Sequence record: MK327931.1
DNA length: 64,000 nt
Direction: 5' to 3' (one strand)
Source: Escherichia phage vB_EcoM_G17
Shown here: piece after piece, positions 1,255 to 59,222 of the stretch
Numbering within the stretch: position 1 is the first letter of the stretch
How the letters are laid out: each line of letters opens with the position of its first letter
Translations under genes and position numbers: made by a program
Notes under the pieces: generated by a model
Told to the model about the DNA's origin: nothing
Databases searched by the model: none
The model's input: the letters and a program-made list of their open reading frames with translations, nothing else

Positions 1255-1500
1255 TTTGAATCTCCTAACTTTGTGGGCCGTCGCACCATTGCCGCCCTAC
1301 GAGATACATTATTGCAGTACTGATATACTTTGTCAATACTTTTTTTATTAATAGTTTTCACCCCACCAGCAGATAGTTACTCACCGTTATTAACTATATA
1401 TTTTAGATACACTCCTGCACCCAGTGGGCTAGTTTTTGTCTATGCGTATATAATAGCAAAGGGACTGACCGGAGTCAATCCCTTTTTTTATTCTTTTTTG

Positions 1501-4027: not shown

Positions 4028-4248
4028 GATTTTATTCCTTATTACCAGGGAGAACCATTTCCCCCTCTCTATGTAAAACATTATACTTGATTCTAAGTAC
4101 AATGCAAGTACTTTTTATCAAATAGTTTTCAGTACTGAATACTTATATAATAGATACACTTCCGCACCCTATGGGTCAGTGAGTTATCTCTCAATGAATA
4201 TATAATAGCAAAGGGACTGACCGGAGTCAATCCCTTTTTTAATCTTTT

Positions 4249-7202: not shown

Positions 7203-7517
7203 TTTTATGTTTCCTTATCAGTGGTTGATGTAAGTATTATACTCGTTTACTTTCTATTGTCAAACTATTTTATCAGGGGAGTTTTTCGTATGTCTTACTC
7301 CTGGACTACTTAACAGGGTTACTTATTTCGTTCCCCGTCCTGATGTAAAACATTATACTTGATTCTAAGTACAATGCAAGTACTTTTTTAAAAATAGTTT
7401 TCAGTACTAGCCACCAGCAAACAATAGATACATTTATGCACCCTGTGGGCTGATTTGTTTCTATGCGTATATAATAGCAAAGGGACTGACCGGAGTCAAT
7501 CCCTTTTTCAAATATTT

Positions 7518-10586: not shown

Positions 10587-10796
10587 GATTTGTTTCCTTA
10601 TTACCAGGGGAAACCGTTTCCCCTTTCGATGTAAAACATTATACGCTTATTGAGATAGTTTGCAAGTACTTTTTAAAAATAGTTTTCAGTACTCAAACAT
10701 TATACAATAGATACACTCCTGCACCCTGTGGGCTAGTGAGCTATCTCTCAATGAATATATAATAGCAAAATGGCTGACCGAAGTCAACCACTTTTT

Positions 10797-25039: not shown

Positions 25040-26176
25040 ATGTTACCTTTTGTTAGAATGTTAAATTATGGGAACGTAGCACCAGAAAAACTAAAAGTTC
25101 GTGATATTGTTGCAGGTGCTAATTCATTATTACTAATAACCGAGGATAATGAATTATGGGTGCGTGGTAATAATTCGTATGGCAAATTAGGTATAGGAAC
25201 TGATACTATAGTGAATGTAACCGAGTGGACTAAAGTTAGAGATGATGTTAAGTTTGCTTGTGCTAGTAATTTAGTATGCGTTGTATTAACTGTAGATAAT
25301 AAAATTTTCTACTGTGGTGATGAATGGTTTGAATCTGGTGGTTCGACAAGTTCTAAAGTTGTTACATGGAAAGATGTTACGACACAATTTAGTGCAGTGA
25401 ATCTAAGCACAGTACGTGAAATGAAAATGACTTCTTATTGTGTAGGATTACTTACAAATGATAATAGATTATATGCTAAAGGATATGATAATAACCAATC
25501 ATTTGGTGGTTCAACAAGCAAAGTTAATGCTGTATTAGTTGCGTCAAATGTTTCAAAATTCTACACTTCTCTATCTGGTACTATATATTCTAGTACTACT
25601 GGTGGTTACTACCGCTGTGGTATAAGCAATACTGGAGCATTGGGTACTAGCACAAATTTAACTTCTTATAATTTGTACTCTGCTCCCGAATTTGCATCCG
25701 AATGTGCAGTTGGTATGTCAACATTAAACTCTGGTATATTATATTATGATACTAATGGTAGCACTAGATATGTTATAGCAGGTCAAAATAGATATTATCA
25801 ACTAGGTAATTCTTCTTCAAATACCACAAACGTATATTCGTATACAGAATTAACCGGATATAGAGGCAGGTTTAGGGATTTGTGGAGTGATATGAATAAC
25901 TCTGTTCTTTCTTTTGCTATAAGCACAGATGGCAATACTTTATATTATGCTGGTACTAACACTACACTATCTTCTGGTGACCCTGGTGTTGAATATTCAT
26001 CTACATTTAAAGAAGTACCACACGGGTTTAATGATATAACAAAGGCGGCATCGTTAGCCTATCTATCTATAGTGCAAGATTCAACGGGATGGTATTATTC
26101 TGGAAATGCAACTACGTTATATGGTTTGCCATCGAGTGATGAATTTATACCATTACCATTACCAACAATAATTTAA
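25040..26176 (+). CDS. MLPF-family RCC1-like repeat protein R1
   Basis: N-terminus MLPFVRMLNYGNVAP; repeated G-x-N-x-(Y/G)-(G/Q)-LG-x-G motifs (NNSYGKLGIGT, QNRYYQLGNSS); start trimmed from 25022 to the ATG with AAGGAGGG SD. Confidence 0.7.
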   Translation: MLPFVRMLNYGNVAPEKLKVRDIVAGANSLLLITEDNELWVRGNNSYGKLGIGTDTIVNVTEWTKVRDDVKFACASNLVCVVLTVDNKIFYCGDEWFESGGSTSSKVVTWKDVTTQFSAVNLSTVREMKMTSYCVGLLTNDNRLYAKGYDNNQSFGGSTSKVNAVLVASNVSKFYTSLSGTIYSSTTGGYYRCGISNTGALGTSTNLTSYNLYSAPEFASECAVGMSTLNSGILYYDTNGSTRYVIAGQNRYYQLGNSSSNTTNVYSYTELTGYRGRFRDLWSDMNNSVLSFAISTDGNTLYYAGTNTTLSSGDPGVEYSSTFKEVPHGFNDITKAASLAYLSIVQDSTGWYYSGNATTLYGLPSSDEFIPLPLPTII

Positions 26177-26182
26177 ATACAG

Positions 26183-26211
26183 GCCAGTACTTGATACTGG
26201 CTTTTCTTTTT
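26183..26211 (+). terminator. Rho-independent terminator after R1 (GCCAGTA-N5-TACTGGC plus T-run)
   Basis: Inverted repeat followed by ttttctttttt; next promoter -10 TATAAT at 26226-26231. Confidence 0.6.
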
Positions 26212-26247
26212 TGTATTAAATATAGTATAATGAATAAGGAGGGAAAT

Positions 26248-27450
26248 ATGTTACCTTTTGGAAGAATGGTTAAGTACGCAAATATTGCACCAGGTCCAGA
26301 ACCTGTAGAGTTCTCAGATGTTTTACAACAACATTATACAAACTGTATGTATCTCCATAACCCAACTAATACTTTATATGGTTATGGTAGTAATAACTTT
26401 TACCAATTTGGTCTTGGGAATTCAGCAGCAGTTTCGTCATTTACAGTACTTGCAAGGAACTGTGCAGCCTTTTGGCTTGGTGTTCAAGGTTCATTGATGA
26501 TTGATTTGGATAATAAAATATACTACACTGGGTCGGTTGGTGCATTTTCTGATTATGGAGATGCAACACCTGTTAATGGTTATTTGACAACATGGACTGA
26601 TGTTACTGTTGCATTTAATAAAATAGGTGTTATGGCTAATATGATCAAGAGTGTATATATAGGTGAAAGTACTAGAATATTATTAACCGATGGTAGAGTA
26701 ATTGCGTGTGGAAGAAATACTAATGGTGAATGTGGCTCTGGTAATAAAAATTCCATCCCTACACTCACAGTTATGACTAATATGGGTGAAGTTACACATA
26801 TGGCATGTTCATTACAAGGAACGCACTATATCAAATCAAATAAAGATGCATGGTTTTGTGGTAAGGATAACTTTGGTGAAAGTGGATGTGGTGGTAGTTT
26901 TGTTGTATATTTGAACAAATTCGTGATTAGTAATGTAGAACATATTAGTACTACATACGATGTTACTTGGTGGTTTACTACTGGTGGGCCTGTATATTAT
27001 AGCGGGGCTAACAGTTCTGGACAAGCTGGTAATGGTACGACTACATCGGTAAATCAGCTAACACCAATTAGGAACACATCGGTCACGGTTGATGTAAGTA
27101 AGTACAGTACTTTTATTTGTCCAAGTAATATGGGAAATGCATCAATTGGTGCACCTATGGCACAATACGCACCATATGTTAGAAGTAGTGGTGCTAACTC
27201 ATATGGTCAAGAAGGTAATGGAACTAATACATTAGTTAGAACTTGGAATATTTTTAATCTTAGTGCAATAAGTGGTGGTTATGACAATGTTCTTATGGCA
27301 TCTAAAGATTGGAGCAGAACCATAATAATTACTAAAGATTATAAATTATATGCATGTGGTGGCTGGAATGGTAGTGGTGGTAGATTACCTGATGGCACTT
27401 ATAGTATTACTACACTAACATTAATGCCAACGCAGTTATGGCAACAATAG
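26248..27450 (+). CDS. MLPF-family RCC1-like repeat protein R2
   Basis: MLPFGRMVKYANIAP; motifs SNNFYQFGLGN, RNTNGECGSGN, ANSYGQEGNGT; start trimmed from 26191. Confidence 0.7.
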   Translation: MLPFGRMVKYANIAPGPEPVEFSDVLQQHYTNCMYLHNPTNTLYGYGSNNFYQFGLGNSAAVSSFTVLARNCAAFWLGVQGSLMIDLDNKIYYTGSVGAFSDYGDATPVNGYLTTWTDVTVAFNKIGVMANMIKSVYIGESTRILLTDGRVIACGRNTNGECGSGNKNSIPTLTVMTNMGEVTHMACSLQGTHYIKSNKDAWFCGKDNFGESGCGGSFVVYLNKFVISNVEHISTTYDVTWWFTTGGPVYYSGANSSGQAGNGTTTSVNQLTPIRNTSVTVDVSKYSTFICPSNMGNASIGAPMAQYAPYVRSSGANSYGQEGNGTNTLVRTWNIFNLSAISGGYDNVLMASKDWSRTIIITKDYKLYACGGWNGSGGRLPDGTYSITTLTLMPTQLWQQ

Positions 27451-27458
27451 GAGGGAAT

Positions 27459-28568
27459 ATGTTACCTTTTGGAAGAATGATTAGGTATGGAAATATTGTC
27501 CCTGGTCCTAAAAAAATAATTAAAGTTGGTGCTTCTACCCAAGGCCAATTCTTATTGACTGATTCACATGATTTATATTACATAGGTAGAAATCAAGGTG
27601 GTGAATCTGGAAATGGTAATACCAACACGGTGTCTTCGTGGACATTAGTAAGTGCAGATGTTTCTAATTTTTTCGTGGGTGATCGTACACTTGTTATTAT
27701 TAAAAATGATAATACGATATGGACATCAGGTCAAACGTACTGGTTCTCATCTTCTACAACTACTTCTTACAGTACTGTATTAGTTGAAAGAACTAATTGG
27801 TTTACCAATGCTATACCAGTAAGTGAAATTGCTAATATTGTATGCACAAATGGTTTAATATTTGTACTTAGCACTAATTCAGTACTCTATGGTGCAGGAG
27901 ATAATGGATATCGTGGTTCTTTGGGTATTGGTTCATCATCAATTTACACATTAACTCAATGTGCTACGAACGTTCGTAAAGTAATGACCAATGCGAATGA
28001 TAGTATGTATCTTACATTAGATAATAAGCTATATAGTTCTGGATGGAATAGTAGTGGGCAGCATGGTACGGGGAACCAAACACAAATTAACACTTGGGGA
28101 TTGCGTAGTTCTGGTGTAATCGATGCAGCCATTGGTGGTAATGCATTAAATTACTATAATGGTACATCATATTTCGTATGTGGTCAAACTCCAAACTTTC
28201 TTAGTTCAGGTACGACTACATTCCGTGCAGTTCCTTTAAGTACTTTGCCTAATAGTTCTCCATTGTTTATGACGAATTCACCTGCCTTAAATACTGCTAC
28301 ACAAATGGTAATTACTAGTACATATCAGAAGGGTGTTGGGGCGAACCGTGGTTTGGGATTAAACAATTCTCAAACTGGTGCTATATATAGTGCTACCAAT
28401 TTACAATTACCCGTTGAAGTTAGTGAGATTAGGGATGTTCTTTTTAGTGATGGTTTGACATCGATATTAACCAAAAATGGAGACGTGTATAGTACTGGAT
28501 CGTATTACGCCATTCCAGGTGCAATCGAGGATGTTGCAGTCTTTACTAAAATTGATTTACCAAAATAA
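27459..28568 (+). CDS. MLPF-family RCC1-like repeat protein R3
   Basis: MLPFGRMIRYGNIVP; motifs RNQGGESGNGN, DNGYRGSLGIG, WNSSGQHGTGN; no terminator between R2 and R3 (co-transcribed). Confidence 0.7.
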   Translation: MLPFGRMIRYGNIVPGPKKIIKVGASTQGQFLLTDSHDLYYIGRNQGGESGNGNTNTVSSWTLVSADVSNFFVGDRTLVIIKNDNTIWTSGQTYWFSSSTTTSYSTVLVERTNWFTNAIPVSEIANIVCTNGLIFVLSTNSVLYGAGDNGYRGSLGIGSSSIYTLTQCATNVRKVMTNANDSMYLTLDNKLYSSGWNSSGQHGTGNQTQINTWGLRSSGVIDAAIGGNALNYYNGTSYFVCGQTPNFLSSGTTTFRAVPLSTLPNSSPLFMTNSPALNTATQMVITSTYQKGVGANRGLGLNNSQTGAIYSATNLQLPVEVSEIRDVLFSDGLTSILTKNGDVYSTGSYYAIPGAIEDVAVFTKIDLPK

Positions 28569-28574
28569 CATAAT

Positions 28575-28604
28575 GCCAGTACTCTGTACTGGCTTTCTTA
28601 TTTG
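28575..28604 (+). terminator. Rho-independent terminator after R3
   Basis: GCCAGTAC-tct-GTACTGGC then T-rich tract. Confidence 0.6.
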
Positions 28605-28638
28605 TATTAAATATAGTATAATGAATAAAGGAGGGAAT

Positions 28639-29808
28639 ATGTTACCTTTTGGAAGAATGATTAAGTACGGAAATATTGCACCTGCTAAACCAAATATTAA
28701 AAAAATACTTGCTAACAACTATAATGTTGCTGTTTTAACAAACAGTGGTGATTTATATGTGCGTGGTGAGAATGCAAATGGTCTTTTGGGTTTAGGTCAC
28801 AAAAATACTGTTACTACATGGACTTATAGTACTTCTGGTGTTCAAGATTTTTGGATGGGAGCCACGACGATAGTTCTTAAGAAAAGCAATGATGAAATAT
28901 GGTACAGTGGAAGTTCAACAACTGTTGGTATGAAAGGGGCAGCAGTATCAATATGGACTTCTGCTATGCCAACATTCGATACATTAACATTACCAATATT
29001 AGATATAGCAGTTAGTTATCAGACTACAAGTGTGTTACTGTCAGACCAAACAATATGGAGTACTGGAGTGGGGTCAGATGGTCAGTTGGGTGATGGGACA
29101 ACAACTAACAATATTGCTGGTAAATTCGTCAAAAGTACTGTTCCGGCCGCAGCAAATCAATTACCTGTTAAATTGTTTGCAAGTAATTTAATGCACGGTT
29201 ATGTTACAAACCAAGGATGGCTATTTTATACAGGAAGAGTAAATGCAGTTACAAGTTCAGGAAGTAAGTTATATACTATATATTATGGTGCTCCTACCAG
29301 CTTAAGAAATACAATTAATATCAAGTACTACACGGAGAATGGTACTTCAATGGCAATGGCAATTGGTACTGATCCAAATGGAAAAACCATCATCGCAAAT
29401 GGCGGTTCGAGAATATTTGGTGCACAAGCAGATGGGACAAATGGTTCTCTCAATGATTATAGAGCATTTGAGGTTCAAACTGCTTCACTAATGCCACCCG
29501 GTGATGTAGTAAGCATTGCTAACAATACTTCATATTATAACCAAGTTATTGCTACAACAGATGGTATATATTGTTGCGGCTACAATCAATCTTCAGAAGC
29601 TGGTATGTTAGGTATTGGTACATCTACCAATGCATTGGTATATACCAAAGCAATCGTGCCTGATGGGTTTGATTATAGTAAGTCGCAGATGGCAGGTGGG
29701 TATAACCGAACTTATATAACTGATGGTAATTTTGTATATAGCACAGGGACAAATGTCACATATGGTGGCGTTAGTAGCTTAGAATTTGTATTAGATTCAC
29801 CAGTTTAA
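28639..29808 (+). CDS. MLPF-family RCC1-like repeat protein R4
   Basis: MLPFGRMIKYGNIAP; motifs ENANGLLGLGH, VGSDGQLGDGT, YNQSSEAGMLGIGT; start trimmed from 28477. Confidence 0.7.
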   Translation: MLPFGRMIKYGNIAPAKPNIKKILANNYNVAVLTNSGDLYVRGENANGLLGLGHKNTVTTWTYSTSGVQDFWMGATTIVLKKSNDEIWYSGSSTTVGMKGAAVSIWTSAMPTFDTLTLPILDIAVSYQTTSVLLSDQTIWSTGVGSDGQLGDGTTTNNIAGKFVKSTVPAAANQLPVKLFASNLMHGYVTNQGWLFYTGRVNAVTSSGSKLYTIYYGAPTSLRNTINIKYYTENGTSMAMAIGTDPNGKTIIANGGSRIFGAQADGTNGSLNDYRAFEVQTASLMPPGDVVSIANNTSYYNQVIATTDGIYCCGYNQSSEAGMLGIGTSTNALVYTKAIVPDGFDYSKSQMAGGYNRTYITDGNFVYSTGTNVTYGGVSSLEFVLDSPV

Positions 29809-29814
29809 ATATAT

Positions 29815-29845
29815 GCCAGTACTCTGTACTGGCATTCTTATTTGT
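29815..29845 (+). terminator. Rho-independent terminator after R4
   Basis: GCCAGTAC-tct-GTACTGGC then attcttatttg. Confidence 0.55.
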
Positions 29846-29879
29846 ATTAAATATAGTATAATGAATAAAGGAGGGAAAT

Positions 29880-31028
29880 ATGTTACCTTTTGCAAGAATG
29901 ATGAATTATGGGAATATTGCCCCTGGTAAGGATAGGCGTTTTAAAATATATTCAAGTGATTCTATGTATCTTCATGATACTTATACTAATAAGTTGTATG
30001 CATCTTCTGCGACGAATTGGGGTACTGGAACAGGTGTAGCATCGAGTAAATTTATTCTTTGTGCAGAGAATGTTAAACGAGTTCTATTGGAAGATAACAG
30101 TAGTAGTTGTCAATTGTATGAAGAGAAAGGTACTGGAAAAGTTTTTATCACTGGTAACACGAAGGCATTCACTGGTGTAACTGATACAAAAACTTTGTGG
30201 ACGGACTGTACTACGTGGATAACATCAGGTGGTATTAATGTTTCTGATATAAAATACATGAGTAGTTTTAATGATATGAAGGTGAATTTGATAACAAACG
30301 ATGGTACGTTGTATTGTTGTGGAGTTAACAATAACTCGAACCTATCATCATTTGGTGATGGTACAAACATTAATTCTTTTAACACATTCAAAAGGGTAGA
30401 TACTATAACTTCGGTTAAAAAGGCAGTTGGTAACATATACCTAAAAGAAGATAATACTTTATGGGGTTGTGGTTTTAACTATTACTATCAGTTAGGTACA
30501 GGTAATCAAACTTCTATTACTGGGGTGACGATGATTGCTTCGGATGTTATAGATTTTGATGTAAGTTATCAAAGTACATTTTTTATTAAATCGGATAATA
30601 ATTTGTACGCTTGTGGTAAACAGTTCGGTGCACAATACGGGAACGAATTTGGCACAGGTGGTACTTCTTCATCTACCGATATACAATACAAAACTCCGAC
30701 ATTATTGAGTTCAGGAGTTTATACTCTATATACTTGTGTTAGTAACATGGCATCACATATAGCTAAAGGTGATGAAGTTCTATACGCATCTGGGTCGAAT
30801 GGATTTGGTCAATTAGGTGTTGGTAATAATATTAATCAGTACTCATATACTCCTTCGTATACTTCGTTTAATAGTTCGTGTAATTTGGTACGCACTCCAT
30901 CTGGTTCACTTATACTTACGGACACTGAGCAATTATATTATTGTGGGTATGCTATGGTAGTAATGGGGGGAATTGCTGGACAAAACATTCTTAGTTATAC
31001 AGAAGTTGATATGTCATTTATACAATGA
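29880..31028 (+). CDS. MLPF-family RCC1-like repeat protein R5
   Basis: MLPFARMMNYGNIAP; motifs FNYYYQLGTGN, SNGFGQLGVGN. Confidence 0.7.
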   Translation: MLPFARMMNYGNIAPGKDRRFKIYSSDSMYLHDTYTNKLYASSATNWGTGTGVASSKFILCAENVKRVLLEDNSSSCQLYEEKGTGKVFITGNTKAFTGVTDTKTLWTDCTTWITSGGINVSDIKYMSSFNDMKVNLITNDGTLYCCGVNNNSNLSSFGDGTNINSFNTFKRVDTITSVKKAVGNIYLKEDNTLWGCGFNYYYQLGTGNQTSITGVTMIASDVIDFDVSYQSTFFIKSDNNLYACGKQFGAQYGNEFGTGGTSSSTDIQYKTPTLLSSGVYTLYTCVSNMASHIAKGDEVLYASGSNGFGQLGVGNNINQYSYTPSYTSFNSSCNLVRTPSGSLILTDTEQLYYCGYAMVVMGGIAGQNILSYTEVDMSFIQ

Positions 31029-31034
31029 TTTAAT

Positions 31035-31063
31035 GCCAGTACACTGTACTGGCTTTCTTATTT
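31035..31063 (+). terminator. Rho-independent terminator after R5
   Basis: GCCAGTAC-act-GTACTGGC then T-rich tract. Confidence 0.6.
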
Positions 31064-31099
31064 GTATTAAATATAGTATAATGAATAAAGGAGGAATTT

Positions 31100-32242
31100 A
31101 TGTTACCTTTTGCAAGAATGATGAATTATGGGAATATTGCACCAGAACCAAAACCTCTATTTAAAAATAGATTACAAGCAAATTATAATACTCGTTTTTA
31201 TTTGCATGTTAATGGTGACTTGTACTGGTATGGTTCATCTTCATTTGGACAAGGTGGTAATGGTTCATTACAATCATCCACCGTATGGACCCGTGTGAAT
31301 AATAATATTGAACGTTACTGGGGTGGTGTTCTTGGTTCCATTGCCATTAAGAATGATGGAACTATTTGGTTCACAGGTGCTAGTATAGTAATGCCACAAA
31401 TCGGAACAAATACAAATGGGGTTTGGATTGATGTAACCCAGTACTTCACTGATTTTGGTGTCAGTGCTGATGATATTGATGGTATTGCTGTTGGGCAGAA
31501 TTTGCGTGTATTTTTAAAAAATGGAAAATGGTTCTACTGTGGTACTGGCGAAGCTGGTGTATTTGGTAACGCGTCAACAGCTAATGTCACATCGTTCAGA
31601 TACAGCACTATAGAAAATGTTAAAAGTTATGGCTGTTCTTTGCTCAGTACTGGGTTAGTACTTGATGATGGCTCCTATTGGTATGCAGGAAATACTGTTG
31701 CTCCTGGTAGTACAAAAACATCAAATATATTAAGTTTTACAAAAGACAATACGATCACCAATGCTATACAAGCTGTAAATACATACCGTACTTCATATAT
31801 ATTTCTTAATGATGGTTCAGTGAAGGTTGCTTCACCAAATGCATATGGTCAAGCTGGTGTAGGTACAGTATCAGCAGTACCAATGAGTACATTAATTCCC
31901 AATTTATCATTCCAAGGTGAAATAGAGTTGGTGGGTGGTTTATCCAACAACGAAGGGAATGGATGTGTTGTTAAAAATAATAATAAGTTATATACTTGTG
32001 GTCGAAATACCTATGGTCTATGTGGTGTTAATCAAACATCCGAAAATATACTAACTTTCACCGAAATGGTTCTTGATGCATTAGAAGGAAGACGAATTTC
32101 AGGCTTCGTAAATGATAATTTCTATTCAATGATAATTGATGAAAATAACAATTTGTATATGTGTGGTTTGGCTGAACTTGGAAATGTTCCAGTCAATAGA
32201 GTTCCAACAAGGGTTCCTGATTCACTTCTACCGTGGAAATAA
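31100..32242 (+). CDS. MLPF-family RCC1-like repeat protein R6
   Basis: MLPFARMMNYGNIAP; motifs SSSFGQGGNGS, PNAYGQAGVGT, RNTYGLCGVN. Confidence 0.7.
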   Translation: MLPFARMMNYGNIAPEPKPLFKNRLQANYNTRFYLHVNGDLYWYGSSSFGQGGNGSLQSSTVWTRVNNNIERYWGGVLGSIAIKNDGTIWFTGASIVMPQIGTNTNGVWIDVTQYFTDFGVSADDIDGIAVGQNLRVFLKNGKWFYCGTGEAGVFGNASTANVTSFRYSTIENVKSYGCSLLSTGLVLDDGSYWYAGNTVAPGSTKTSNILSFTKDNTITNAIQAVNTYRTSYIFLNDGSVKVASPNAYGQAGVGTVSAVPMSTLIPNLSFQGEIELVGGLSNNEGNGCVVKNNNKLYTCGRNTYGLCGVNQTSENILTFTEMVLDALEGRRISGFVNDNFYSMIIDENNNLYMCGLAELGNVPVNRVPTRVPDSLLPWK

Positions 32243-32248
32243 TATAAT

Positions 32249-32278
32249 GCCAGTATCAAGTACTGGCATTTCTTTTTG
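32249..32278 (+). terminator. Rho-independent terminator after R6
   Basis: GCCAGTA-tcaag-TACTGGC then T-rich tract. Confidence 0.6.
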
Positions 32279-32312
32279 ATTAAATATAGTATAACAAATA
32301 AAGGAGGGAATT

Positions 32313-33500
32313 ATGTTACCTTTTGCAAGAATGATGAATTATGGGAATATTGCCCCAGTACCACTTCAAATTAAGAAAATAATCCCAACTGATTTAGATG
32401 TTGTGGTTCTGTATACGGATGGTCAACTATATGCACGTGGGAATAATAGTTTTGGGAAATTCGGTAGAGGAAACAACACTGCATTAAAATCATGGACATT
32501 AATTAGAGAAAACGTTAACGATTGCTGGCTTACACAAGGAACTTTATTAGTAAAAGACAATGACTCAAATTATTATTACTGTGGATATGGTAGTCATATT
32601 GGTTTATCAACTAGTACTACTACGTTTTTAAGTTATAACCAATATATTCAAAATTTGTACACACAAAGTTCAAGTACTTCAATTAAACAGATGTATGGAG
32701 GTACTACGTGGTTTACTTTCTTAATGGACAATAATACAATATGGAGTACAGGGTGGAACAGTGCTAGACAATTCGCCGATGGAACGGGAACTACTTATGA
32801 AATAACCGATGGTTCATTTGTAAAAGCGGTCACACCTAATGTTGATATTGCACAAATACAGTCAACAAATAACTGTGTATTGTTGTTTGATAAACAAAAT
32901 AATTTATATATTGGTGGTGTTACATCCGGTATAAGTTCCGCGACTACATGGACTTCATATAATCAATATACTTTATATCAACCAAATACAACATACACAA
33001 AAACGTTACAATACACAGGATGCTCAACTGGTGCAGTAAGTGCTTTAGTTGAAAATCCAAATACAGGAGCACGTCAGTTCCTTGTCGGTGGGTTAGCTAA
33101 TAATGGGGCATGGGGAAATAACACTACATCTAGCTCTGTTAATGGAGTTTTAGGAAATAACAGTACGACGTTACCACCCGGTACTTTGTATTCAATTCAT
33201 ACTGGATACCCACCACAATCTAGTATACTAATTACGAGTACTGGTGTATATGCAACTGGTTTAAATGCCAGTAGTTATGCTGGTTCATTGGGTATTGGTA
33301 CTAGTGCAACTGTTGGTAAGTTTACTGCATGTCCAATGCCTACACAAATAACATATTCTATGTATGATAAAATAAAAATATATAGAGGTTCATATCGTAC
33401 ATTTCTAACTGATATGAAAAATATATATTCAACCGGAACTTATGATGATGGTGGTCCTAGTACAACTAGATATGTACTAGATACACCCCGACAATTATAA
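32313..33500 (+). CDS. MLPF-family RCC1-like repeat protein R7
   Basis: MLPFARMMNYGNIAP; motifs NNSFGKFGRGN, NASSYAGSLGIGT. Confidence 0.7.
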   Translation: MLPFARMMNYGNIAPVPLQIKKIIPTDLDVVVLYTDGQLYARGNNSFGKFGRGNNTALKSWTLIRENVNDCWLTQGTLLVKDNDSNYYYCGYGSHIGLSTSTTTFLSYNQYIQNLYTQSSSTSIKQMYGGTTWFTFLMDNNTIWSTGWNSARQFADGTGTTYEITDGSFVKAVTPNVDIAQIQSTNNCVLLFDKQNNLYIGGVTSGISSATTWTSYNQYTLYQPNTTYTKTLQYTGCSTGAVSALVENPNTGARQFLVGGLANNGAWGNNTTSSSVNGVLGNNSTTLPPGTLYSIHTGYPPQSSILITSTGVYATGLNASSYAGSLGIGTSATVGKFTACPMPTQITYSMYDKIKIYRGSYRTFLTDMKNIYSTGTYDDGGPSTTRYVLDTPRQL

Positions 33501-33507
33501 TATAATA

Positions 33508-33537
33508 GCCAGTACTCAGTACTGGCTTTTCTTTTTG
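33508..33537 (+). terminator. Rho-independent terminator after R7
   Basis: GCCAGTAC-tca-GTACTGGC then ttttctttttg. Confidence 0.6.
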
Positions 33538-33572
33538 TATTAAATATATTATAATGAATAAAGGAGGGAATT

Positions 33573-34310
33573 ATGTTACCTTTTGGAAGAATGATTAAGT
33601 ACGGGAATGAAATTGAATATAAGCCACATGGTGAACAATTAATCACGACAATAGGAACAACACAATTTACAGTTCCTGCTGGCGTTACCGAAATATCAGT
33701 ATGTGTTATTTCGCCGGGTGGTCAACGTGGTGCTGGCGGCGGCTTATCGTGGCGTAATAATATTCCGGTTACTAGTGGTGAGTACTTAAGTGTTTCTCTT
33801 ACGCATACCAACACTACTACACCAGTTGAAAACGGTTTATATCGTGGAACTGAAAAACTATGTGTTAGCTTCACTGGTGCATATACGGTTGGTGGACTAG
33901 GTGGAAAAGCTGCTAACGCTATTAATGATGGTGGTGGTAATGGTGGCAATACTGGTGTAAGTGGTGGTGCAGTCATTGGTGGTGGTGCTGGTGGCTACAC
34001 AGGTAAAGGTGGTAACGGAGATGCAATCACTGGTGAAAATGGTGCTGGCGGCGGCGGGGGCGGTGGTACATTCTATAATACCTCGTTCATTGGTACGGGT
34101 GGTGGTACTGGTATCATTGTTCAAGGTGCTAATGGTATTGGTGGTAGCTACGGTGGTTCATATAATGGTGGTGCTGGTAGTGGTGGTGCTGGTAAGATGT
34201 ATGGTGGTGGTGGTAGTATATGGGATAATTCTTCTTATACGGCTGCTGGTGGTGGTGCTGTGCGAATAATATGGGGAAATGGGAGATATTATCCTAACAA
34301 TTCAGTATAA
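33573..34310 (+). CDS. MLPF-family glycine-rich protein R8 (245 aa)
   Basis: Same promoter/RBS cassette and N-terminus MLPFGRMIKYGN, but body is Gly-rich (GGAGGYTGKGGNGDAITGENGAGGGGGGG...). Confidence 0.65.
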   Translation: MLPFGRMIKYGNEIEYKPHGEQLITTIGTTQFTVPAGVTEISVCVISPGGQRGAGGGLSWRNNIPVTSGEYLSVSLTHTNTTTPVENGLYRGTEKLCVSFTGAYTVGGLGGKAANAINDGGGNGGNTGVSGGAVIGGGAGGYTGKGGNGDAITGENGAGGGGGGGTFYNTSFIGTGGGTGIIVQGANGIGGSYGGSYNGGAGSGGAGKMYGGGGSIWDNSSYTAAGGGAVRIIWGNGRYYPNNSV

Positions 34311-34317
34311 AATATAG

Positions 34318-34347
34318 GCCAGTACAGAGTACTGGCTTTTCTTTTTG
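34318..34347 (+). terminator. Rho-independent terminator after R8
   Basis: GCCAGTAC-aga-GTACTGGC then ttttctttttg. Confidence 0.6.
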
Positions 34348-34380
34348 ATTAAATATAGTATAATGAATAAAGGAGGAAAT

Positions 34381-43883: not shown

Positions 43884-43916
43884 ATTATAGCAAAAAGGGC
43901 TGACCGAAGTCAACCC
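43884..43916 (-). promoter_or_regulatory. hybrid terminator/promoter cassette: hairpin GGGTTGAC-ttcg-GTCAGCCC plus T-run whose stem carries -35 TTGACT; -10 TATAAT at 43884-43889 (rc)
   Basis: Read on minus strand; 18 nt spacer; one of about 13 copies of the ctgaccgaagtcaacc element. Confidence 0.6.
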
Positions 43917-43923
43917 TTTTGTT

Positions 43924-45042
43924 TTAGATAATTTGTACTTCACCATAGATCTGCACGATTTGCTTTCCTGGATTCTCTTCAATGAGTTTAAGGAAAGATT
44001 TCAATGCTCCAATATGGTCTTCATAATACGCAATACGAATGAAGTTATATCCATTTTTTATTGCGTATTCTGTTTTGATTTTATCGTGTTTTTTCCTCAT
44101 AAGTCCGTTTCCCCATCCTGATTCACGTTCTTCAAAGTGATTACTACCATCATATTCAAATAACGTATTAATATCACGAATATAAAAATCATATGGAAGT
44201 TTTGATTTATTTTTTAAATCAGGAAATGTTTTCTCTCTTTCAGTAACAAACATTCCTCTCAAAAACTCTTTACAATCATTATGACCAAATGAGTGTGTTT
44301 CTAATTGGGAACAACATCCACACTTTTGTGCTTGTTTACTAGTAAACGCATAATAGTCTTGATTACACTCGTGTCCTTTATCACATATATATTTTACATA
44401 ATAACGACCATTTGATTTCTTGTAAACTTCTTTTAATGTATATCCTAGTTCATTACAGCGTGTGTTAGCAATTGTTTCACGCATTTCAGGTGTTATAAAA
44501 TATCTAACGTTCATTGATGTTTTTGTAATTATATCATTTATTCTTCGTGGTTGTGTAAATCCATCGGAATATGTGAATTTAATATATGACATTATCCCAT
44601 TGTCTAAATGTTCATTTTCATATATATAGCATCCTCTTTCCTCAAGAGAACCCAATTTGGTTACATAGTAATAATAATTTTCATCTGTATAGGTAAATGA
44701 TGGCTTGAATTTATTGTTTGTTATTTTTTCAAGCTTTGTTTTTAAACCAGTTATTTTATAATTATCATACAATACCCCATTATACATAATCAGTAAATTG
44801 TTATTACTATTTCCGTTTTTACCAAACTCACGTGATGATTTAACTGATAATCCAATAATAGTAATATTGTCAATATCTTTGTTTTTTAATTTTGCTTCTA
44901 TGTCATCAACATGATCCTTAGCAGTGAGTCCTTTTGAAACCCTTTTTATATCTTCAGGCTTCATCCATTCAAAACGCATACCAAGTTCTTCATGAAAATA
45001 AACTTTTTCACCATCTTCATTTAAATAATACTGTTCAAACAT
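43924..45042 (-). CDS. putative endonuclease (DUF559/Vsr-like C-terminal motif) in AT-rich island
   Basis: C-terminal FEYDGSNHF...D..K...G.NFIRI resembles the E-x-DG-x-x-H...R/K...G-x-V-R pattern of DUF559-type endonucleases; strongly AT-rich. Confidence 0.45.
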   Translation of the reverse strand: MFEQYYLNEDGEKVYFHEELGMRFEWMKPEDIKRVSKGLTAKDHVDDIEAKLKNKDIDNITIIGLSVKSSREFGKNGNSNNNLLIMYNGVLYDNYKITGLKTKLEKITNNKFKPSFTYTDENYYYYVTKLGSLEERGCYIYENEHLDNGIMSYIKFTYSDGFTQPRRINDIITKTSMNVRYFITPEMRETIANTRCNELGYTLKEVYKKSNGRYYVKYICDKGHECNQDYYAFTSKQAQKCGCCSQLETHSFGHNDCKEFLRGMFVTEREKTFPDLKNKSKLPYDFYIRDINTLFEYDGSNHFEERESGWGNGLMRKKHDKIKTEYAIKNGYNFIRIAYYEDHIGALKSFLKLIEENPGKQIVQIYGEVQII

Positions 45043-45271
45043 TACTTAATACTCCTTTCCAGTACTGAACCCGTCCAGCACCATTAATCTTAGCTTTAAT
45101 CTTATCTTTTTCGACAAGACCTTCTTTGAAATCGATGGAAGTATTATCGCACTGAATTACATCTAAGTCAAGTACTTCTTGTGTACTTAATGAAGTATTA
45201 TCTGCAATTTGTTGTAAAGTAATTACATCAGTACCGAAGAATTCAGCTAATCGTATAAAAGATAGTTTCAT
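45035..45271 (-). CDS. hypothetical protein (78 aa)
   Basis: Track ORF; 8-nt overlap with downstream gene. Confidence 0.5.
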   Translation of the reverse strand: MKLSFIRLAEFFGTDVITLQQIADNTSLSTQEVLDLDVIQCDNTSIDFKEGLVEKDKIKAKINGAGRVQYWKGVLSNV

Positions 45272-45336
45272 TTGTTACCTCTTGTGTTGATGAAATAATT
45301 ATAGCAAAAAGGGCTGACCGAAGTCAACCCTTTATG

Positions 45337-45696
45337 TTATTCTAATTCACTCATAGTACTAATAGTTAATCCCATTTCTTCTGCAATGTTGCATAACATA
45401 CCAACTGCATTACGAAGAATATCAGTGTTGTCCACCGATAATGATGAGTTTTCATTTACAGTTGAAGACTCAATGTAGTACTCAAAATAACGAGAAGTTG
45501 AACGCACAACTTTAACACCTTCATAGTTCTGTAGTTCAGAGTTGATACGCTCGATGAGCGAATCTTCCAGTACTCGATAGTCACCATTCATTCCACGTTT
45601 CCATCCATCAGCAGGACGGAAATAAAAAGTTTTTGTACGTTGAATTGTTGAGATTGTTAGTGGGTTGTATTCTGCGATTTCACTTAAAGATGCCAT
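45337..45696 (-). CDS. hypothetical protein (119 aa)
   Basis: Track ORF; terminator/promoter cassette at 45300-45333. Confidence 0.55.
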   Translation of the reverse strand: MASLSEIAEYNPLTISTIQRTKTFYFRPADGWKRGMNGDYRVLEDSLIERINSELQNYEGVKVVRSTSRYFEYYIESSTVNENSSLSVDNTDILRNAVGMLCNIAEEMGLTISTMSELE

Positions 45697-45802
45697 GTTG
45701 TATTCCTCATTTGGTGATGTACATAATACAGAAAGATAGAACAGGTGTCAATGTTTATATATCAAATATCCAAATACTTTGGTGTATCACATACTACATC
45801 AA

Positions 45803-45997
45803 CTAATCCTCGCTGAAGACAACAAGAAGGAATGACACGAACAATGCCGCATAACAAGGAGCTATCTTCATGTACCACGGGACTTCATAATACCATGTAC
45901 CTAATTCATCCCACGAAAAGAGTATACTCAAACCGAAGCCGATTAGCGATAGTACAATAAAAGAAATCCAGAAACGCGTTGAATATACTAATAACAT
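45803..45997 (-). CDS. small membrane protein (64 aa)
   Basis: Hydrophobic (FWISFIVLSLIGFGLSILF...). Confidence 0.5.
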   Translation of the reverse strand: MLLVYSTRFWISFIVLSLIGFGLSILFSWDELGTWYYEVPWYMKIAPCYAALFVSFLLVVFSED

Positions 45998-46035
45998 GTT
46001 ATGTTCCTTTGTGTAACCGAAGTCAACCCTTTCCT

Positions 46036-46551
46036 TTAATAATTATTCATTTCATCTTTGATTTGTTCTTCAATTTCGTCGAACATATCAGTACTAGATT
46101 CGTTCTTACTACTTACGTTCTGCATATCTTTAACGTACTGTGGACATTCAACATCAGTAAACTTATACCACGTAGGCTTCATCTGGAGCTTCTCAATCAA
46201 ACGATCACGAGACATTTTAATCTCTGACTCCGTTGGTACGTAGTCATTACAAAACTCAGTAGGGAAGCCGCTAATGTCGTTTACTTCAGTGTTTTGAATC
46301 TTCATACCACGACGCAGACATTCGTTGACAATATCAATATGACGCTTCTGTAAGTACAATAACTTGTCGTAAAAGAATGTCACATGACCTGAACCTAACA
46401 GATAAGTACTATTAATTTTGAAATCACGTACACGCTTACGTGCTTGAACGTGTTTTTGTACAGCACCAAATACACGTGGGAGTTCACGATATTCAGCCAT
46501 CAGATGTTGGTCAGCAAGTTCTTTAACGTGTACTAAGTTAATGCGTGTCAT
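46036..46551 (-). CDS. denV: pyrimidine-dimer DNA glycosylase (T4 endonuclease V-like)
   Basis: Long colinear identity to T4 DenV as recalled from memory: [30 protein letters not shown]...KRVRDFKI....[12 protein letters not shown]...KR.I......CL.RG..I..T.V.DIS..P.EF..DY.P.E..I......RL.EK....PTWYK. Confidence 0.85.
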
Positions 46552-46618
46552 GTATTCATCCTCTCGTCTTGATGAAATAATTATAGCAAAAAGGGCTGAC
46601 CGAAGTCAACCCTTTTCT

Positions 46619-46888
46619 TTATTCAATGATCCCCAACTTCACAATCTCATACCCGTCCAGATAGCCGTAGGAACACTCAGGTGTTTCATAAGATGAACCA
46701 TCATGGATGCCCTGGCATTGACTTTTGGAATTCTCAAGCAATCGTTGCAGTACTGATACGTCATCAAGAACGTAATACAAGTTAGCATATAGGTCAGTTA
46801 CAATACAGTACTCCAACATATCAAATGTATCAATCGAAATTTCAACCTTAGCAAATCGTTTCTTTTCTTTATTATACAGTGCGTACAT
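46619..46888 (-). CDS. hypothetical protein (89 aa)
   Basis: Track ORF 46619..46906 trimmed to MYALYNK, placing the ATG just after the stop of the upstream kinase-like gene. Confidence 0.45.
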   Translation of the reverse strand: MYALYNKEKKRFAKVEISIDTFDMLEYCIVTDLYANLYYVLDDVSVLQRLLENSKSQCQGIHDGSSYETPECSYGYLDGYEIVKLGIIE

Positions 46889-46889
46889 A

Positions 46890-47261
46890 TTAATCTCCAT
46901 AATCAAGTTTAACTAACTTACCACCCAGATACCCAAAGTTTTCTGGCTTCGCATCTGAATAGAAGAAGTCAGTACTTAACTCTGAATTCAATGCTAAAGC
47001 ACACAACTCCACCCAAAATAAACCCCTATGTTGAACTGGCTTACAACGTTTCTGTACAGTTACTAGTCCAGTACATGATGACCACAACGTAGGACAGATA
47101 CTACTATCACTACGATTGGAGTACTGCATCCACGAACGTTCATTGAGGTTAGCTATCATCCCTGTTAAGAATAGCTTCCAACTTTTAAAGGTTGGAATCT
47201 TGATAGCATATTCCCCAATGAGGATAACAGTTCGTGTTGCACCTTTCAAATCTATATTCAT
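46890..47261 (-). CDS. minimal protein-kinase-like protein, paralog of 4249..4833
   Basis: VILIGEYAIKIP (lysine), SDAKPENFG (catalytic-loop-like), KLVKLDYGD (DFG-like); LST...D.K.(Q/E)N.G....G(L/K)(I/L)VK(V/L)LDYG shared with 4249..4833. Confidence 0.5.
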   Translation of the reverse strand: MNIDLKGATRTVILIGEYAIKIPTFKSWKLFLTGMIANLNERSWMQYSNRSDSSICPTLWSSCTGLVTVQKRCKPVQHRGLFWVELCALALNSELSTDFFYSDAKPENFGYLGGKLVKLDYGD

Positions 47262-48303: not shown

Positions 48304-48379
48304 GGTAGTTCCTCGATTGTAGGGATGAGAAGTTCATCCCCTTGATAAGCATTATACAGTACTGAATGTGTTTGTCAAC

Positions 48380-51046: not shown

Positions 51047-51115
51047 TACTTTATCCTCTGTAGTTAATACCAACATCATAACAAAAAAGGCTGACCGAAG
51101 TCAACCCTTTTATTA

Positions 51116-52130: not shown

Positions 52131-52201
52131 TGTAATCCCTCTTCTTAATTCCTCTTTTGTATTTACAAAAAAAGGCTGACCGAAGTCAACCTTTAGTTTT
52201 A

Positions 52202-53746: not shown

Positions 53747-53808
53747 TTTTTCTCTATGTCTATATTTATAGTATAAAGAAAAGGCTGACCGAAGTCAACC
53801 TTATTTTG

Positions 53809-53922: not shown

Positions 53923-53991
53923 ATATGATACCTCAGTTATATTGAGAAGTTATGATACAACAAAGGGCTGACCTTAGTCAACCCCTTTTTA

Positions 53992-57165: not shown

Positions 57166-57219
57166 AATTAAAATCCTCTAATTTATTAAGAGAATTATAA
57201 CAAAAAAGGCTGACCGAAG

Positions 57220-57411
57220 TCAACCTTTGTTTTGAAGTTCTTGAACTAATTGTCGTACTTCGTTAATATTTTTACACTGCTTTACAGTGAAGTAATCATA
57301 CTTACGACCATAGGTTCTTGGGTCATCACCTTCCATATACTGCTGCACATCAAAGATTTGTAAGTAGGGATGCTGCATAACACGAATATTATCACTTTGA
57401 TAAATCAACAT
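57220..57411 (-). CDS. hypothetical protein (63 aa)
   Basis: Track ORF 57220..57465 trimmed to MLIYQSD (AAGGA SD). Confidence 0.45.
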   Translation of the reverse strand: MLIYQSDNIRVMQHPYLQIFDVQQYMEGDDPRTYGRKYDYFTVKQCKNINEVRQLVQELQNKG

Positions 57412-58922: not shown

Positions 58923-58979
58923 ATTTTTTACCTCAAGTTTAAGTGTTAAGTTTCAGACTACAGGAACCATTATACAGTA

Positions 58980-59222
58980 CTACGAACGTTTGTCAACATT
59001 TGTTTCTTCAATAAGCATAAGATAACTTAACACGAAGAGTAATACCGAAATAATATCAATAACTGTAAAGCTCACTGGAATGATAATAGACACCAGTACT
59101 AATGCCACGTTTAGCAAGAATACAGTAGTGAGATCTACCATCGTTCGTCTAGTGGCTAATGCCACTAGTGTAGGATAGAACATAAACAATAGTGCAACAA
59201 CAAAACTTAGTACTAGATACAT
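58980..59222 (-). CDS. small membrane protein (80 aa)
   Basis: Hydrophobic. Confidence 0.5.
   Translation of the reverse strand: MYLVLSFVVALLFMFYPTLVALATRRTMVDLTTVFLLNVALVLVSIIIPVSFTVIDIISVLLFVLSYLMLIEETNVDKRS

What the first reader, a model, noticed from the sequence alone, without database searches (positions are those of the whole stretch)
43884..43916. Hybrid terminator/promoter cassette: terminator stem encodes the -35 box
The element (A)GGGCTGACCGAAGTCAACCC(T)n recurs at least 13 times (near 1463, 4215, 7478, 10767, 43897, 45307, 46010, 46585, 51085, 52175, 53780, 53955, 57205). On the minus strand it reads GGGTTGAC-ttcg-GTCAGCCC-TTTTT, a stable UUCG-loop hairpin plus U-run (intrinsic terminator), and the stem contains TTGACT positioned 17-18 nt upstream of a TATAAT/TATTAT/TATGAT -10. 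One compact module therefore terminates the upstream unit and starts the next, an economical design I have not seen described as a repeated family.
Basis: partly seen in the sequence, partly recalled or inferred. Interest (0 to 1): 0.75.

Follow-up and report, generated by a model that had tools for sequence, protein, structure and literature searches.

The report
Repeated promoter–terminator cassette in jumbo phage
The repeated hairpin is real and most likely both stops transcription of the gene upstream and starts it for the gene downstream, but this kind of cassette (the "PeSL") was already described in T4-type phages in 2010 and 2014, so the only new point is its presence in a RaK2-like jumbo coliphage.

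Summary
The window is Escherichia phage Sharanji (Asteriusvirus, a RaK2-like jumbo phage), genome positions 15,778-79,777. There are 12 intact copies and one truncated copy of A-run/GGGTTGAC-TTCG-GTCAGCCC/T-run, all on the minus strand and all in intergenic gaps between co-oriented small genes. Shuffled sequence gives none. Eleven of the 12 intact copies carry a -10 hexamer 17-18 nt after the TTGAC in the 5' arm, and nine of those also have an extended -10 (TGn).

Evidence for a dual role:
- The first T of TTGAC is always kept, although it forces a G·U wobble that pairs only in minus-strand RNA.
- The outer stem pairs change in a compensatory way and the loops vary.
- Of 87 sense-strand copies from many phages, 70 have a good -10, against 9 of 75 read on the other strand.
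- In IMG/VR the wobble form outnumbers the perfect-stem forms (34 stretches against 3 and 4).

This is the PeSL design (promoter-early stem-loop; Arbiol 2010, Comeau 2014), including "half" copies and indels at the cassette edges, both of which I see here. The same hairpin is listed as a terminator in the phage CBB paper and in GenBank records. No experiment was possible. Verdict: a new member of a known kind, of low to moderate interest.

The parts
43884..43921 (-). The flagged cassette. Read on the minus strand: A-run (43917-43921), stem-loop GGGTTGAC-TTCG-GTCAGCCC (43916-43897) with -35 TTGACT at 43913-43908, T-run/spacer TTTTTGC, and extended -10 TGC-TATAAT (-10 at 43889-43884).
   Evidence: The stop codon of upstream gp129 (43924) lies 7 nt before the stem. 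The SD GAGGG and the ATG of gp128 (43855) follow.
45298..45335 (-). Cassette copy with a stem identical to the flagged one, spacer 18, TGC-TATAAT. It sits between gp131 (stop at 45337) and gp130 (ATG at 45271).
46580..46617 (-). Cassette copy with an identical stem, spacer 18, TGC-TATAAT. It sits between gp133 (stop at 46619) and the denV-like glycosylase gp132 (ATG at 46551).
46010..46029 (-). Truncated 'half' cassette: GGGTTGACTTCGGT followed by unrelated sequence, then an SD and the ATG of an unannotated 64-aa ORF (45803-45997). It does not fold and has no T-run or -10.
   Evidence: fold -1.7 kcal/mol, z +0.65. It is conserved in phages JP4 and UB.
51075..51112 (-). Cassette copy GGGTTGAC-TTCG-GTCAGCCT, spacer 18, TGT-TATGAT.
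52166..52197 (-). Cassette copy AGGTTGAC-TTCG-GTCAGCCT with a 6-T run but no -10 hexamer. It is probably terminator-only. The orthologue in phage 121Q has GTCAACCT, that is G·U changed to A-U.
53770..53806 (-). Cassette copy AGGTTGAC-TTCG-GTCAGCCT, spacer 17, TATACT.
53952..53989 (-). Cassette copy with loop TAAG: GGGTTGAC-TAAG-GTCAGCCC, spacer 18, TATCAT.
57194..57231 (-). Cassette copy AGGTTGAC-TTCG-GTCAGCCT, spacer 18, TGT-TATAAT. The TGA stop codon of upstream gp158 lies inside TTGAC.
1450..1486 (-). Variant copy GGATTGAC-TCCG-GTCAGTCC (compensatory G-C to A-U at stem pair 3-18), spacer 17, TGC-TATTAT. It is followed by a conserved non-coding leader of about 190 nt rather than directly by a gene.
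4202..4238 (-). Variant copy of the same type as 1462.
7471..7507 (-). Variant copy of the same type as 1462.
10759..10795 (-). Variant copy TGGTTGAC-TTCG-GTCAGCCA (compensatory G-C to U-A at stem pair 1-20), spacer 17, TGC-TATTAT. An unannotated 45-aa ORF (10797-10934) ends 6 nt upstream.

Best explanation
The element is a PeSL-type composite early promoter and intrinsic terminator of a RaK2-like jumbo phage.

Termination (inferred). RNA polymerase arriving from the upstream gene on the minus strand transcribes A-run/GGGUUGAC-UUCG-GUCAGCCC/U-run. The 8-bp stem is capped by a C(UUCG)G tetraloop, is extended by A·U pairs and is followed by 4-7 U. It releases the transcript inside what is, on the DNA, the spacer of the next promoter.

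Initiation (inferred). On the same duplex, host sigma-70 holoenzyme reads the A-run as an UP-like element. It reads TTGAC(T) in the 5' arm as the -35. The end of the T-run plus G supplies the TGn of an extended -10, and TATAAT-like follows 17-18 nt after the -35. Transcription starts about 7 nt beyond the -10, so the new transcript does not contain the hairpin and is not terminated by it.

The result is an insulated early transcription unit packed into an intergenic gap of about 68 nt: stop codon, 6-9 nt, hairpin, -10, SD, ATG.

Shown here: the sequence anatomy, its statistics, the strand asymmetry and the comparative patterns. Inferred: termination and initiation themselves, which rest on lacZ tests of the same design in RB49/phi1.

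Because neighbouring copies share about 70 nt, they also act as patches of homology at which gene modules are gained and lost.
For: Repeat. There are 12 intact copies against 0 in shuffles. All are on the coding strand of co-oriented small ORFs, 6-19 nt after a stop codon.

Hairpin. Stable hairpins with U-runs; three copies also meet the generic terminator scan.

Promoter. Eleven of 12 have a -10 at spacer 17-18 and nine have TGn.

Dual constraint.
- The T that makes TTGAC is invariant, although it forces a U·G wobble (57 U·G and 7 U·A among 64 distinct copies).
- The plus-strand RNA would have a C·A mismatch and folds 4-9 kcal/mol worse.
- Stem pair 1-20 is GC 45, AU 10, GU 6, UA 2, with one copy unpaired; the covariation score exceeds all 500 shuffles.
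- Loops vary (UUCG, UCCG, UAAG, GAAA, GAGA, GCAA, GCGA and others) around an unchanged stem.

Coupling of -35 and -10. 70 of 87 sense-strand copies from many phages match TATAAT at 5 or 6 of 6 positions at spacer 17-18, against 9 of 75 read antisense.

IMG/VR exact scans. GGTTGAC..GTCAGCC occurs in 34 stretches, against 3 for the perfect-stem GGCTGAC..GTCAGCC and 4 for GGTTGAC..GTCAACC.

Independent annotation. The hairpin is listed as rho-independent terminators Torf515, Torf518 and Torf520 in the CBB paper supplement. It is annotated 'terminator' in the UE-S1 and Munch records. The fHe-Yen9-03 record places -35/-10 signals over it.

Precedent. PeSLs with a stem-loop overlapping the -35 gave termination comparable to rrnB T1 and about 13,000 Miller units of promoter activity (PMC2839356). 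The nt-1/KVP40 PeSL consensus has the same shape (PMC4122927).

Indels. Homology breaks against UE-S1, JP4, UB, PBECO4 and 121Q fall at cassette edges: 43920 in four phages, 45267-45342 in two, 46618-46627 in two.

Not host-derived. The cassette has no match in 5,426 E. coli genomes.
Against: - There are no transcript-end or transcript-start data for Sharanji or any RaK2-like phage in the searchable literature.
- An 18-nt spacer is suboptimal.
- The four left-hand copies have only 3-4 U directly after the stem, so they may attenuate rather than terminate.
- Copy 52173 has no -10, so the two functions can be separated.
- The inner stem pairs could not be tested for covariation, because the retrieval patterns fixed them.
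- Several indels at cassette edges involve homing-endonuclease-like genes (record annotations). Endonuclease mobility may therefore explain those breakpoints rather than recombination between cassettes.
Confidence: 0.8

Rival explanations
1. Terminator only. The hairpin and U-run end the upstream transcripts, and the TTGAC and TATAAT-like hexamers are by-products of an AT-rich intergenic context.
For: The CBB authors and the UE-S1 and Munch annotators list the element only as a terminator. Copy 52173 and its 121Q orthologue lack a -10. Promoter-like hexamer pairs are no more frequent than in shuffles across this AT-rich region: 89 found against 93 expected.
Against: A good -10 follows 80% of sense-strand copies but only 12% of antisense reads of the same sites. 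The destabilising T of TTGAC is invariant. The wobble form outnumbers both perfect-stem forms in IMG/VR, 34 stretches against 3 and 4. A TGn extended -10 is present in 9 of 12 copies. In 7 of the 8 right-hand copies the SD and ATG sit at a fixed distance, with the ATG 59-62 nt from the start of the stem.
Confidence: 0.08
2. Promoter plus DNA operator. The near-palindrome TTGAC-N4-GTCAG is the binding site of a dimeric phage or host regulator that switches these early promoters off or on. Under this reading RNA hairpin formation is irrelevant.
For: The element is palindromic and covers the -35, a classic position for a repressor. The other strong promoters in the window carry a different palindrome, CAGTACTG, in their spacers, so operator-like palindromes at promoters are a theme in this genome.
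Against: The two halves are not symmetric at the DNA level (TTGAC against CTGAC), yet they pair as RNA through G·U. The outer positions change in a compensatory way within a single genome. The centre varies freely among stable tetraloops. A U-run always follows. A protein could still bind in addition.
Confidence: 0.05
3. The cassette is primarily a recombination or mobility element. It would be kept because it serves as a linker for module exchange (PeSL mini-circles) or as the landing and flanking site of free-standing homing endonucleases. Its regulatory activity would be secondary.
For: Breakpoints fall at cassette edges in five related phages. In UE-S1 a deletion runs exactly between two cassettes and leaves one behind. 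A 'half' copy is present at 46010. The variable modules next to the cassettes are HNH or homing-endonuclease-like: gp129 matches PHROG 559 at E 7e-24, and JP4 and UB carry annotated HNH insertions at cassette 46593. A near-identical cassette occurs in unrelated large myoviruses.
Against: This does not exclude the regulatory role and does not explain the anatomy: the -10 spacing, TGn, U-run and G·U asymmetry. Indels tend to be intergenic in any case, and only 3-4 of about 12 gene junctions in the compared region carry cassettes, so the enrichment is moderate. No mini-circles were tested.
Confidence: 0.3

Closest known systems
PeSLs (promoter-early stem-loops) of T4-type phages RB49/phi1 (Arbiol et al. 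2010, PMC2839356) and nt-1/KVP40 and PST/T4 (Comeau et al. 2014, PMC4122927)
   Same: Both are repeated composite motifs made of a sigma-70-like early promoter with AT-rich upstream DNA and a stem-loop that terminates or attenuates incoming transcription. One described subclass has the stem-loop overlapping the -35. G-T pairs in the stems are noted. An SD and start codon lie at the 3' end. Copies cluster among small ORFans in plastic regions. Indels and 'half' copies lie at the motifs. The nt-1/KVP40 consensus A3-4G3-loop-C3T3-4 with TTGYVH-N17-TAWWAT fits this cassette, and KVP40-like phages (VH7D, ValKK3, phi-pp2) match it in BLAST; read out in VH7D, the stem is identical and a -10 follows.
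   Different: The host phage is a RaK2-like jumbo myovirus (Asteriusvirus), not a member of the T4 subfamily studied. This family is unusually uniform, with one stem sequence in which the -35 always sits in the 5' arm. Four copies drive a non-coding leader rather than a gene. Promoter, terminator and mini-circle activities are untested here.
C(UUCG)G hairpins in phage T4 intercistronic regions (Tuerk et al. 1988; cited from memory, not checked with the tools)
   Same: Both are extra-stable cUUCGg tetraloop hairpins placed between phage genes, acting at the RNA level.
   Different: Those were described as RNA stability or termination structures, not as carriers of a promoter -35.
Morons of lambdoid phages (promoter + gene + terminator units; as discussed in PMC2839356)
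   Same: Both give autonomous, transcriptionally insulated expression of accessory genes.
   Different: Moron signals are separate, non-repeated, often oriented against the flanking genes, and are not proposed as recombination linkers. Here one shared, repeated cassette serves two adjacent units.
RpoD-like early promoters with UP-like elements, and rho-independent terminators, predicted in RaK2-like phage CBB (PMC5259590)
   Same: The phage group is the same, and the same early region of short hypothetical ORFs is involved. The identical hairpin GGGTTGACTTCGGTCAGCCC is listed as terminators Torf515, Torf518 and Torf520.
   Different: In that paper the hairpin sites are not among the listed promoters, and no overlap between the two signal classes is mentioned.

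Membership tests
PeSL (composite promoter-early / stem-loop cassette) | Sigma-70-like -35 and -10 boxes at a functional spacing | tested here: met
   TTGAC(T) followed after 17-18 nt by a TATAAT-like hexamer in 11 of 12 intact copies; TGn in 9.
PeSL (composite promoter-early / stem-loop cassette) | A stable stem-loop within or next to the promoter (here overlapping the -35) that could terminate upstream transcription | tested here: met
   An 8-bp stem plus tetraloop, -11 to -12.8 kcal/mol, or -14 to -19.5 kcal/mol with the A/U extension, z-scores -4.7 to -5.6, followed by 4-7 U. This is in silico only.
PeSL (composite promoter-early / stem-loop cassette) | [quoted passage not shown] | tested here: met
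   An A-run of 3-7 nt lies immediately 5' of the stem, with the stop codon 6-19 nt upstream, and inside the stem at copy 57207.
PeSL (composite promoter-early / stem-loop cassette) | Shine-Dalgarno sequence and start codon of the downstream gene at the 3' end of the motif | tested here: met
   Eight of 12 copies have an SD and an ATG; in seven the ATG is 59-62 nt from the start of the stem and in the eighth (53782) about 55 nt. The four left-hand copies instead precede a leader of about 190 nt and a second promoter.
PeSL (composite promoter-early / stem-loop cassette) | Many copies clustered in a plastic region of small ORFs of unknown function | tested here: met
   All 13 copies in the 350-kb genome lie at 17-73 kb among small hypothetical ORFs. 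Seven of nine neighbouring proteins have no Pfam family.
PeSL (composite promoter-early / stem-loop cassette) | Association with insertions, deletions or replacements between close relatives, and degraded 'half' copies | tested here: met
   Breakpoints at cassette edges against UE-S1, JP4, UB, PBECO4 and 121Q; a half copy at 46010. Homing-endonuclease mobility is a confounder.
PeSL (composite promoter-early / stem-loop cassette) | Promoter and terminator activity demonstrated; mini-circle formation between neighbouring copies | not testable with these tools
   Reporter assays, transcript-end mapping and outward-facing PCR are needed.
PeSL (composite promoter-early / stem-loop cassette) | Carried by a T4-type phage, as the family was originally defined | tested here: not met
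   The host phage is an Asteriusvirus, a RaK2-like jumbo phage. It does encode proteins annotated as T4-like: Gp23-type capsid, Gp20 portal and a baseplate protein. This concerns the taxonomic scope of the original descriptions, not the element's mechanism.
Canonical intrinsic (rho-independent) terminator | G+C-rich hairpin immediately followed by a U-tract on the transcribed strand | tested here: met
   The four left-hand copies are weaker, with CUUUG after the stem.

The most novel reading that the evidence does not exclude
The cassette occurs almost verbatim in lineages that share little else. The shared parts are the A-run, GGGTTGAC-UUCG-GUCAGCCC with the same U·G wobble, the T-run and TGC-TATAAT. 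The lineages are RaK2-like jumbo phages of Escherichia, Klebsiella, Salmonella, Erwinia, Pectobacterium, Yersinia, Serratia and Cronobacter; KVP40-like vibriophages; Aeromonas phage 65 relatives; and unnamed IMG/VR contigs of 108-162 kb. BLAST also matches CR3/CR9-type phages of about 150 kb, but their copies were not read out. The most novel reading is that this is not convergence on one optimal design. Instead it would be a horizontally spreading 'universal linker' that lets ORFan and homing-endonuclease modules move between unrelated large myoviruses, with the G·U wobble selected to keep the promoter one-directional (an A there would create TTGAC on the opposite strand as well).
Probability: 0.2. 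Interest if true: 0.55.

Novelty: new member of a known kind. Interest (0 to 1): 0.27.

Why it matters
The result extends PeSL-type composite promoter-terminator cassettes from T4-type phages to the RaK2-like jumbo phages.

- It gives annotators a rule. The hairpin marks both the end of one early unit and the start of the next. It also exposes probable mis-set start codons, for example gp144 and gp147.
- It offers a simple explanation for how the early, ORFan-rich region is split into insulated units, and why gene content changes at these points between close relatives.
- The 38-nt core (A-run to -10; about 68 nt with the SD and start codon) is a ready-made, compact insulator-plus-promoter part for E. 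coli synthetic biology, if its activities are confirmed.

It does not reveal a new principle.

Tried and rejected
- Rfam. A scan of the whole window at gathering thresholds gave no family. ARAGORN found no tRNA or tmRNA.
- Host origin. The cassette has no match in 5,426 complete E. coli genomes, so it is not a host-derived terminator.
- Literature. The Sharanji and RaK2 genome papers do not mention promoters or terminators. The PA5oct, five-T4-like-phage and rV5 papers describe promoters and terminators but no overlap of the two. A search on phAPEC6 turned up no paper describing the element. A full-text search for the sequence itself found nothing.
- My own generic terminator scan of the genome under-called the cassettes, because it extended the stem into the A/T runs. 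I used it only to show that about 100 other, unrelated terminator-like hairpins exist in the genome. Several of these are followed by a separate TTGACA 13-16 nt downstream, a non-overlapping version of the same logic.
- gp129 has no Pfam domain. Only PHROGs supports the 'homing endonuclease' label.
- I looked for a larger conserved RNA structure in the leader that follows the four left-hand copies. RNAalifold found only a 4-bp hairpin, so I dropped the idea of a structured RNA.
- A boxA/boxB (nut-like) reading of that leader rested only on a resemblance I recalled, and I did not pursue it.

Full report
**Identity of the window.** Window 43000-47000 is 100% identical to Escherichia phage Sharanji (OR545507.1, 350,079 bp, Asteriusvirus, a RaK2-like jumbo myovirus). 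The window corresponds to genome positions 15,778-79,777. Most of it is a run of small hypothetical ORFs on the minus strand. An array of larger paralogous genes on the plus strand occupies about 25-39 kb.

**The observation.**
- The 20-mer has 12 matches with up to 3 mismatches and none in 100 shuffles.
- On the minus strand each intact copy reads A-run, GGGTTGAC, tetraloop, GTCAGCCC, T-run.
- Four sequence variants exist in the window: GGG../..CCC, AGG../..CCT, TGG../..CCA and GGA../..TCC. In each the two arms change together.
- The 46010 copy keeps only GGGTTGACTTCGGT and does not fold.
- I assembled the whole genome from the public record. These 13 sites are the only ones in 350 kb, all on one strand, between 17 and 73 kb.

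**Anatomy.**
- The core hairpin folds at -11 to -12.8 kcal/mol, and at -14.1 to -19.5 kcal/mol once the flanking A and U runs pair. No shuffle does as well.
- The commonest loop is UUCG closed by C-G.
- The fourth stem pair is always U·G. The same DNA read as plus-strand RNA has a C·A mismatch and folds 4-9 kcal/mol worse. The structure is therefore specific to RNA made from the coding strand.
- TTGAC occupies stem positions 4-8.
- A -10-like hexamer follows at spacer 17 or 18 in 11 of 12 copies. In nine copies the T-run ends in TG-N, giving an extended -10.
- Stop codons of the upstream ORFs lie 6-19 nt before the stem, and inside TTGAC at copy 57207.
- In seven of the eight right-hand copies the ATG sits 59-62 nt after the start of the stem; in the eighth (53782) it is about 55 nt. 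The whole intergenic gap is about 68 nt.
- A transcript started at this promoter begins beyond the hairpin, so it is not subject to it.

**Is the -35 a coincidence?** Three tests say it is not.
1. I collected 87 sense-oriented copies from IMG/VR and GenBank phages. Seventy carry a match of 5 or 6 out of 6 to TATAAT at spacer 17-18. Only 9 of 75 do when the same sites are read on the other strand.
2. Exact scans of 2.9 million viral contigs find the wobble form GGTTGAC..GTCAGCC in 34 stretches. The perfect-stem form with C is found in 3 and the perfect-stem form with A in 4. A pure terminator would be expected to prefer the perfect stems.
3. Among 64 distinct copies the stem is kept while the loop varies (UUCG, UCCG, UAAG, GAAA, GAGA, GCAA, GCGA and others). 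Stem pair 1-20 shows GC 45, AU 10, GU 6, UA 2, and one copy unpaired. The covariation score exceeds all 500 shuffles and all slid controls.

One caveat applies. The inner four pairs were fixed by the retrieval patterns, so they carry no information.

**What is already known.**
- Arbiol et al. 2010 described PeSLs in RB49/phi1. These are repeated motifs made of a sigma-70-like early promoter with AT-rich upstream DNA and a stem-loop, in five subclasses. One subclass has the stem-loop overlapping the -35, and G-T pairs are marked in the stems.
- Those authors showed termination comparable to rrnB T1 and strong promoter activity with lacZ fusions. They also showed recombination between neighbouring copies.
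- Comeau et al. 2014 extended this to nt-1/KVP40 and PST/T4. The nt-1 consensus is A3-4G3-loop-C3T3-4 with TTGYVH-N17-TAWWAT, and 'half' PeSLs lie near indels. The Sharanji cassette fits that consensus.
- BLAST of the 48-nt cassette finds it in 178 phage records, including KVP40-like vibriophages and Aeromonas phage 65 relatives.
- Within the RaK2-like group, the CBB paper lists the identical hairpin three times as a rho-independent terminator, but not among its RpoD-like promoters.
- The UE-S1 and Munch records call it a terminator. The fHe-Yen9-03 record places promoter signals over it.
- I found no paper in the searchable library that names PeSLs in RaK2-like phages. That is the only new element.

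**Plasticity.** I compared window 42.5-58.5 kb with five relatives.
- Homology ends at 43920, the upstream edge of the flagged cassette, in UE-S1, UB, PBECO4 and 121Q.
- UE-S1 lacks exactly the segment between cassettes 43897 and 45311.
- JP4 has an extra ORF at cassette 45311.
- JP4 and UB have an HNH endonuclease gene inserted at cassette 46593.
- Cassettes 43897, 45311 and 46593 share about 70 nt at 87-92% identity.
- The variable gene next to the flagged copy, gp129, is HNH or homing-endonuclease-like (PHROG 559, E 7e-24). Endonuclease mobility is therefore an alternative cause of these junctions, or a contributing one.

**Context in the same genome.**
- About 100 other terminator-like hairpins of unrelated sequence exist. 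Several are followed 13-16 nt later by a separate TTGACA. 'Terminate, then restart' is thus a general habit of this phage, and the cassette is its compacted form.
- The strong promoters at 48378 and 58996 have no hairpin. They carry CAGTACTG in the spacer instead.
- The left 19 kb holds a second, more numerous cassette family. Its G-rich stem-loop lies just downstream of the -10, another arrangement described for PeSLs.

**Verdict.** The element belongs functionally to the PeSL kind and is a new member in a new phage clade. Interest is low to moderate.

Noticed in passing
window ~909-19061, minus strand (e.g. 16496-16580, 17857-17941, 18995-19079): A second and more numerous repeated regulatory cassette, about 24 copies, one in front of each small ORF. 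It reads AAAAAGTAC-TTGCA(A/T)-N17-TATAAT-GTTTTACAT, then a G-rich 5'UTR hairpin (GGGGA...TCCCC), an SD and ATG. It resembles the PeSL subclass whose stem-loop lies downstream of the -10.
   Followed up: partly
window 1418, 4165, 7439, 10722, 17523 (minus strand); 15236, 17465, 19359, 19575 (plus strand): An invariant motif CCCAnnGGGTGC lies about 25-35 nt downstream of the -10 of nine sigma-70-like promoters. Four of these are the left-hand cassette copies. One pair is convergent (17465 plus, 17523 minus), so its two short transcripts would be partly antisense to each other. The motif recurs in other RaK2-like IMG/VR contigs. It has no Rfam hit, and RNAalifold supports only a 4-bp hairpin. Its function is unexplained.
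   Followed up: partly
window 48351-48378, 58969-58996, and many sites in 12-20 kb: Strong sigma-70 promoters that lack the hairpin carry the palindrome (C)AGTACTG in the spacer, immediately before TATAAT. This could be an operator or another half stem-loop.
   Followed up: no
window ~25040-39283, plus strand (terminators at e.g. 26181-26203, 28575-28593, 29813-29835): An array of about 12 paralogous plus-strand genes (gp106-gp117, one annotated as an RCC1 repeat protein). Most are followed by a GCCAGTACTnnGTACTGGC hairpin and then TATTAAATATA, which resembles the T4/RaK2-type late promoter. This looks like a separate terminator-plus-late-promoter cassette family.
   Followed up: no
window 43924-45042 (gp129), minus strand: This 372-aa ORF is annotated as hypothetical in Sharanji. 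It matches HNH and homing-endonuclease PHROGs (E 7e-24) but no Pfam family. It is present in JP4, replaced by other genes in UB and PBECO4, not found at this position in 121Q, and absent together with gp130 from UE-S1.
   Followed up: partly
window 51079 (gp144 start), 52205 (gp147 start), 45803-45997, 10797-10934: Probable annotation errors. The annotated ATG of gp144 lies inside the -10 (TATGAT). The annotated gp147 ORF reads through the cassette. In both cases an ATG preceded by an SD lies 40-75 nt further downstream. Two small ORFs bounded by cassettes are unannotated.
   Followed up: partly
window 19040-20934 and 21125-22646: Two stretches of 1.5-1.9 kb have no annotated gene. The first holds a 16-nt tandem repeat (TCCAGACGTCTAGCCA, about 5 copies, 19784-19865). 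The second holds several dispersed repeat families of 33-75 nt.
   Followed up: no
L015:6294 (phage 121Q), orthologous to window 52173; L152:7120 and L152:2659: In these copies the 3' arm has drifted (GTCAG to GTCAA, GTCGG or GTTGG) while TTGAC in the 5' arm is unchanged. RNA pairing is kept through G·U or A-U. This asymmetry is what a double constraint on the 5' arm would produce.
   Followed up: partly
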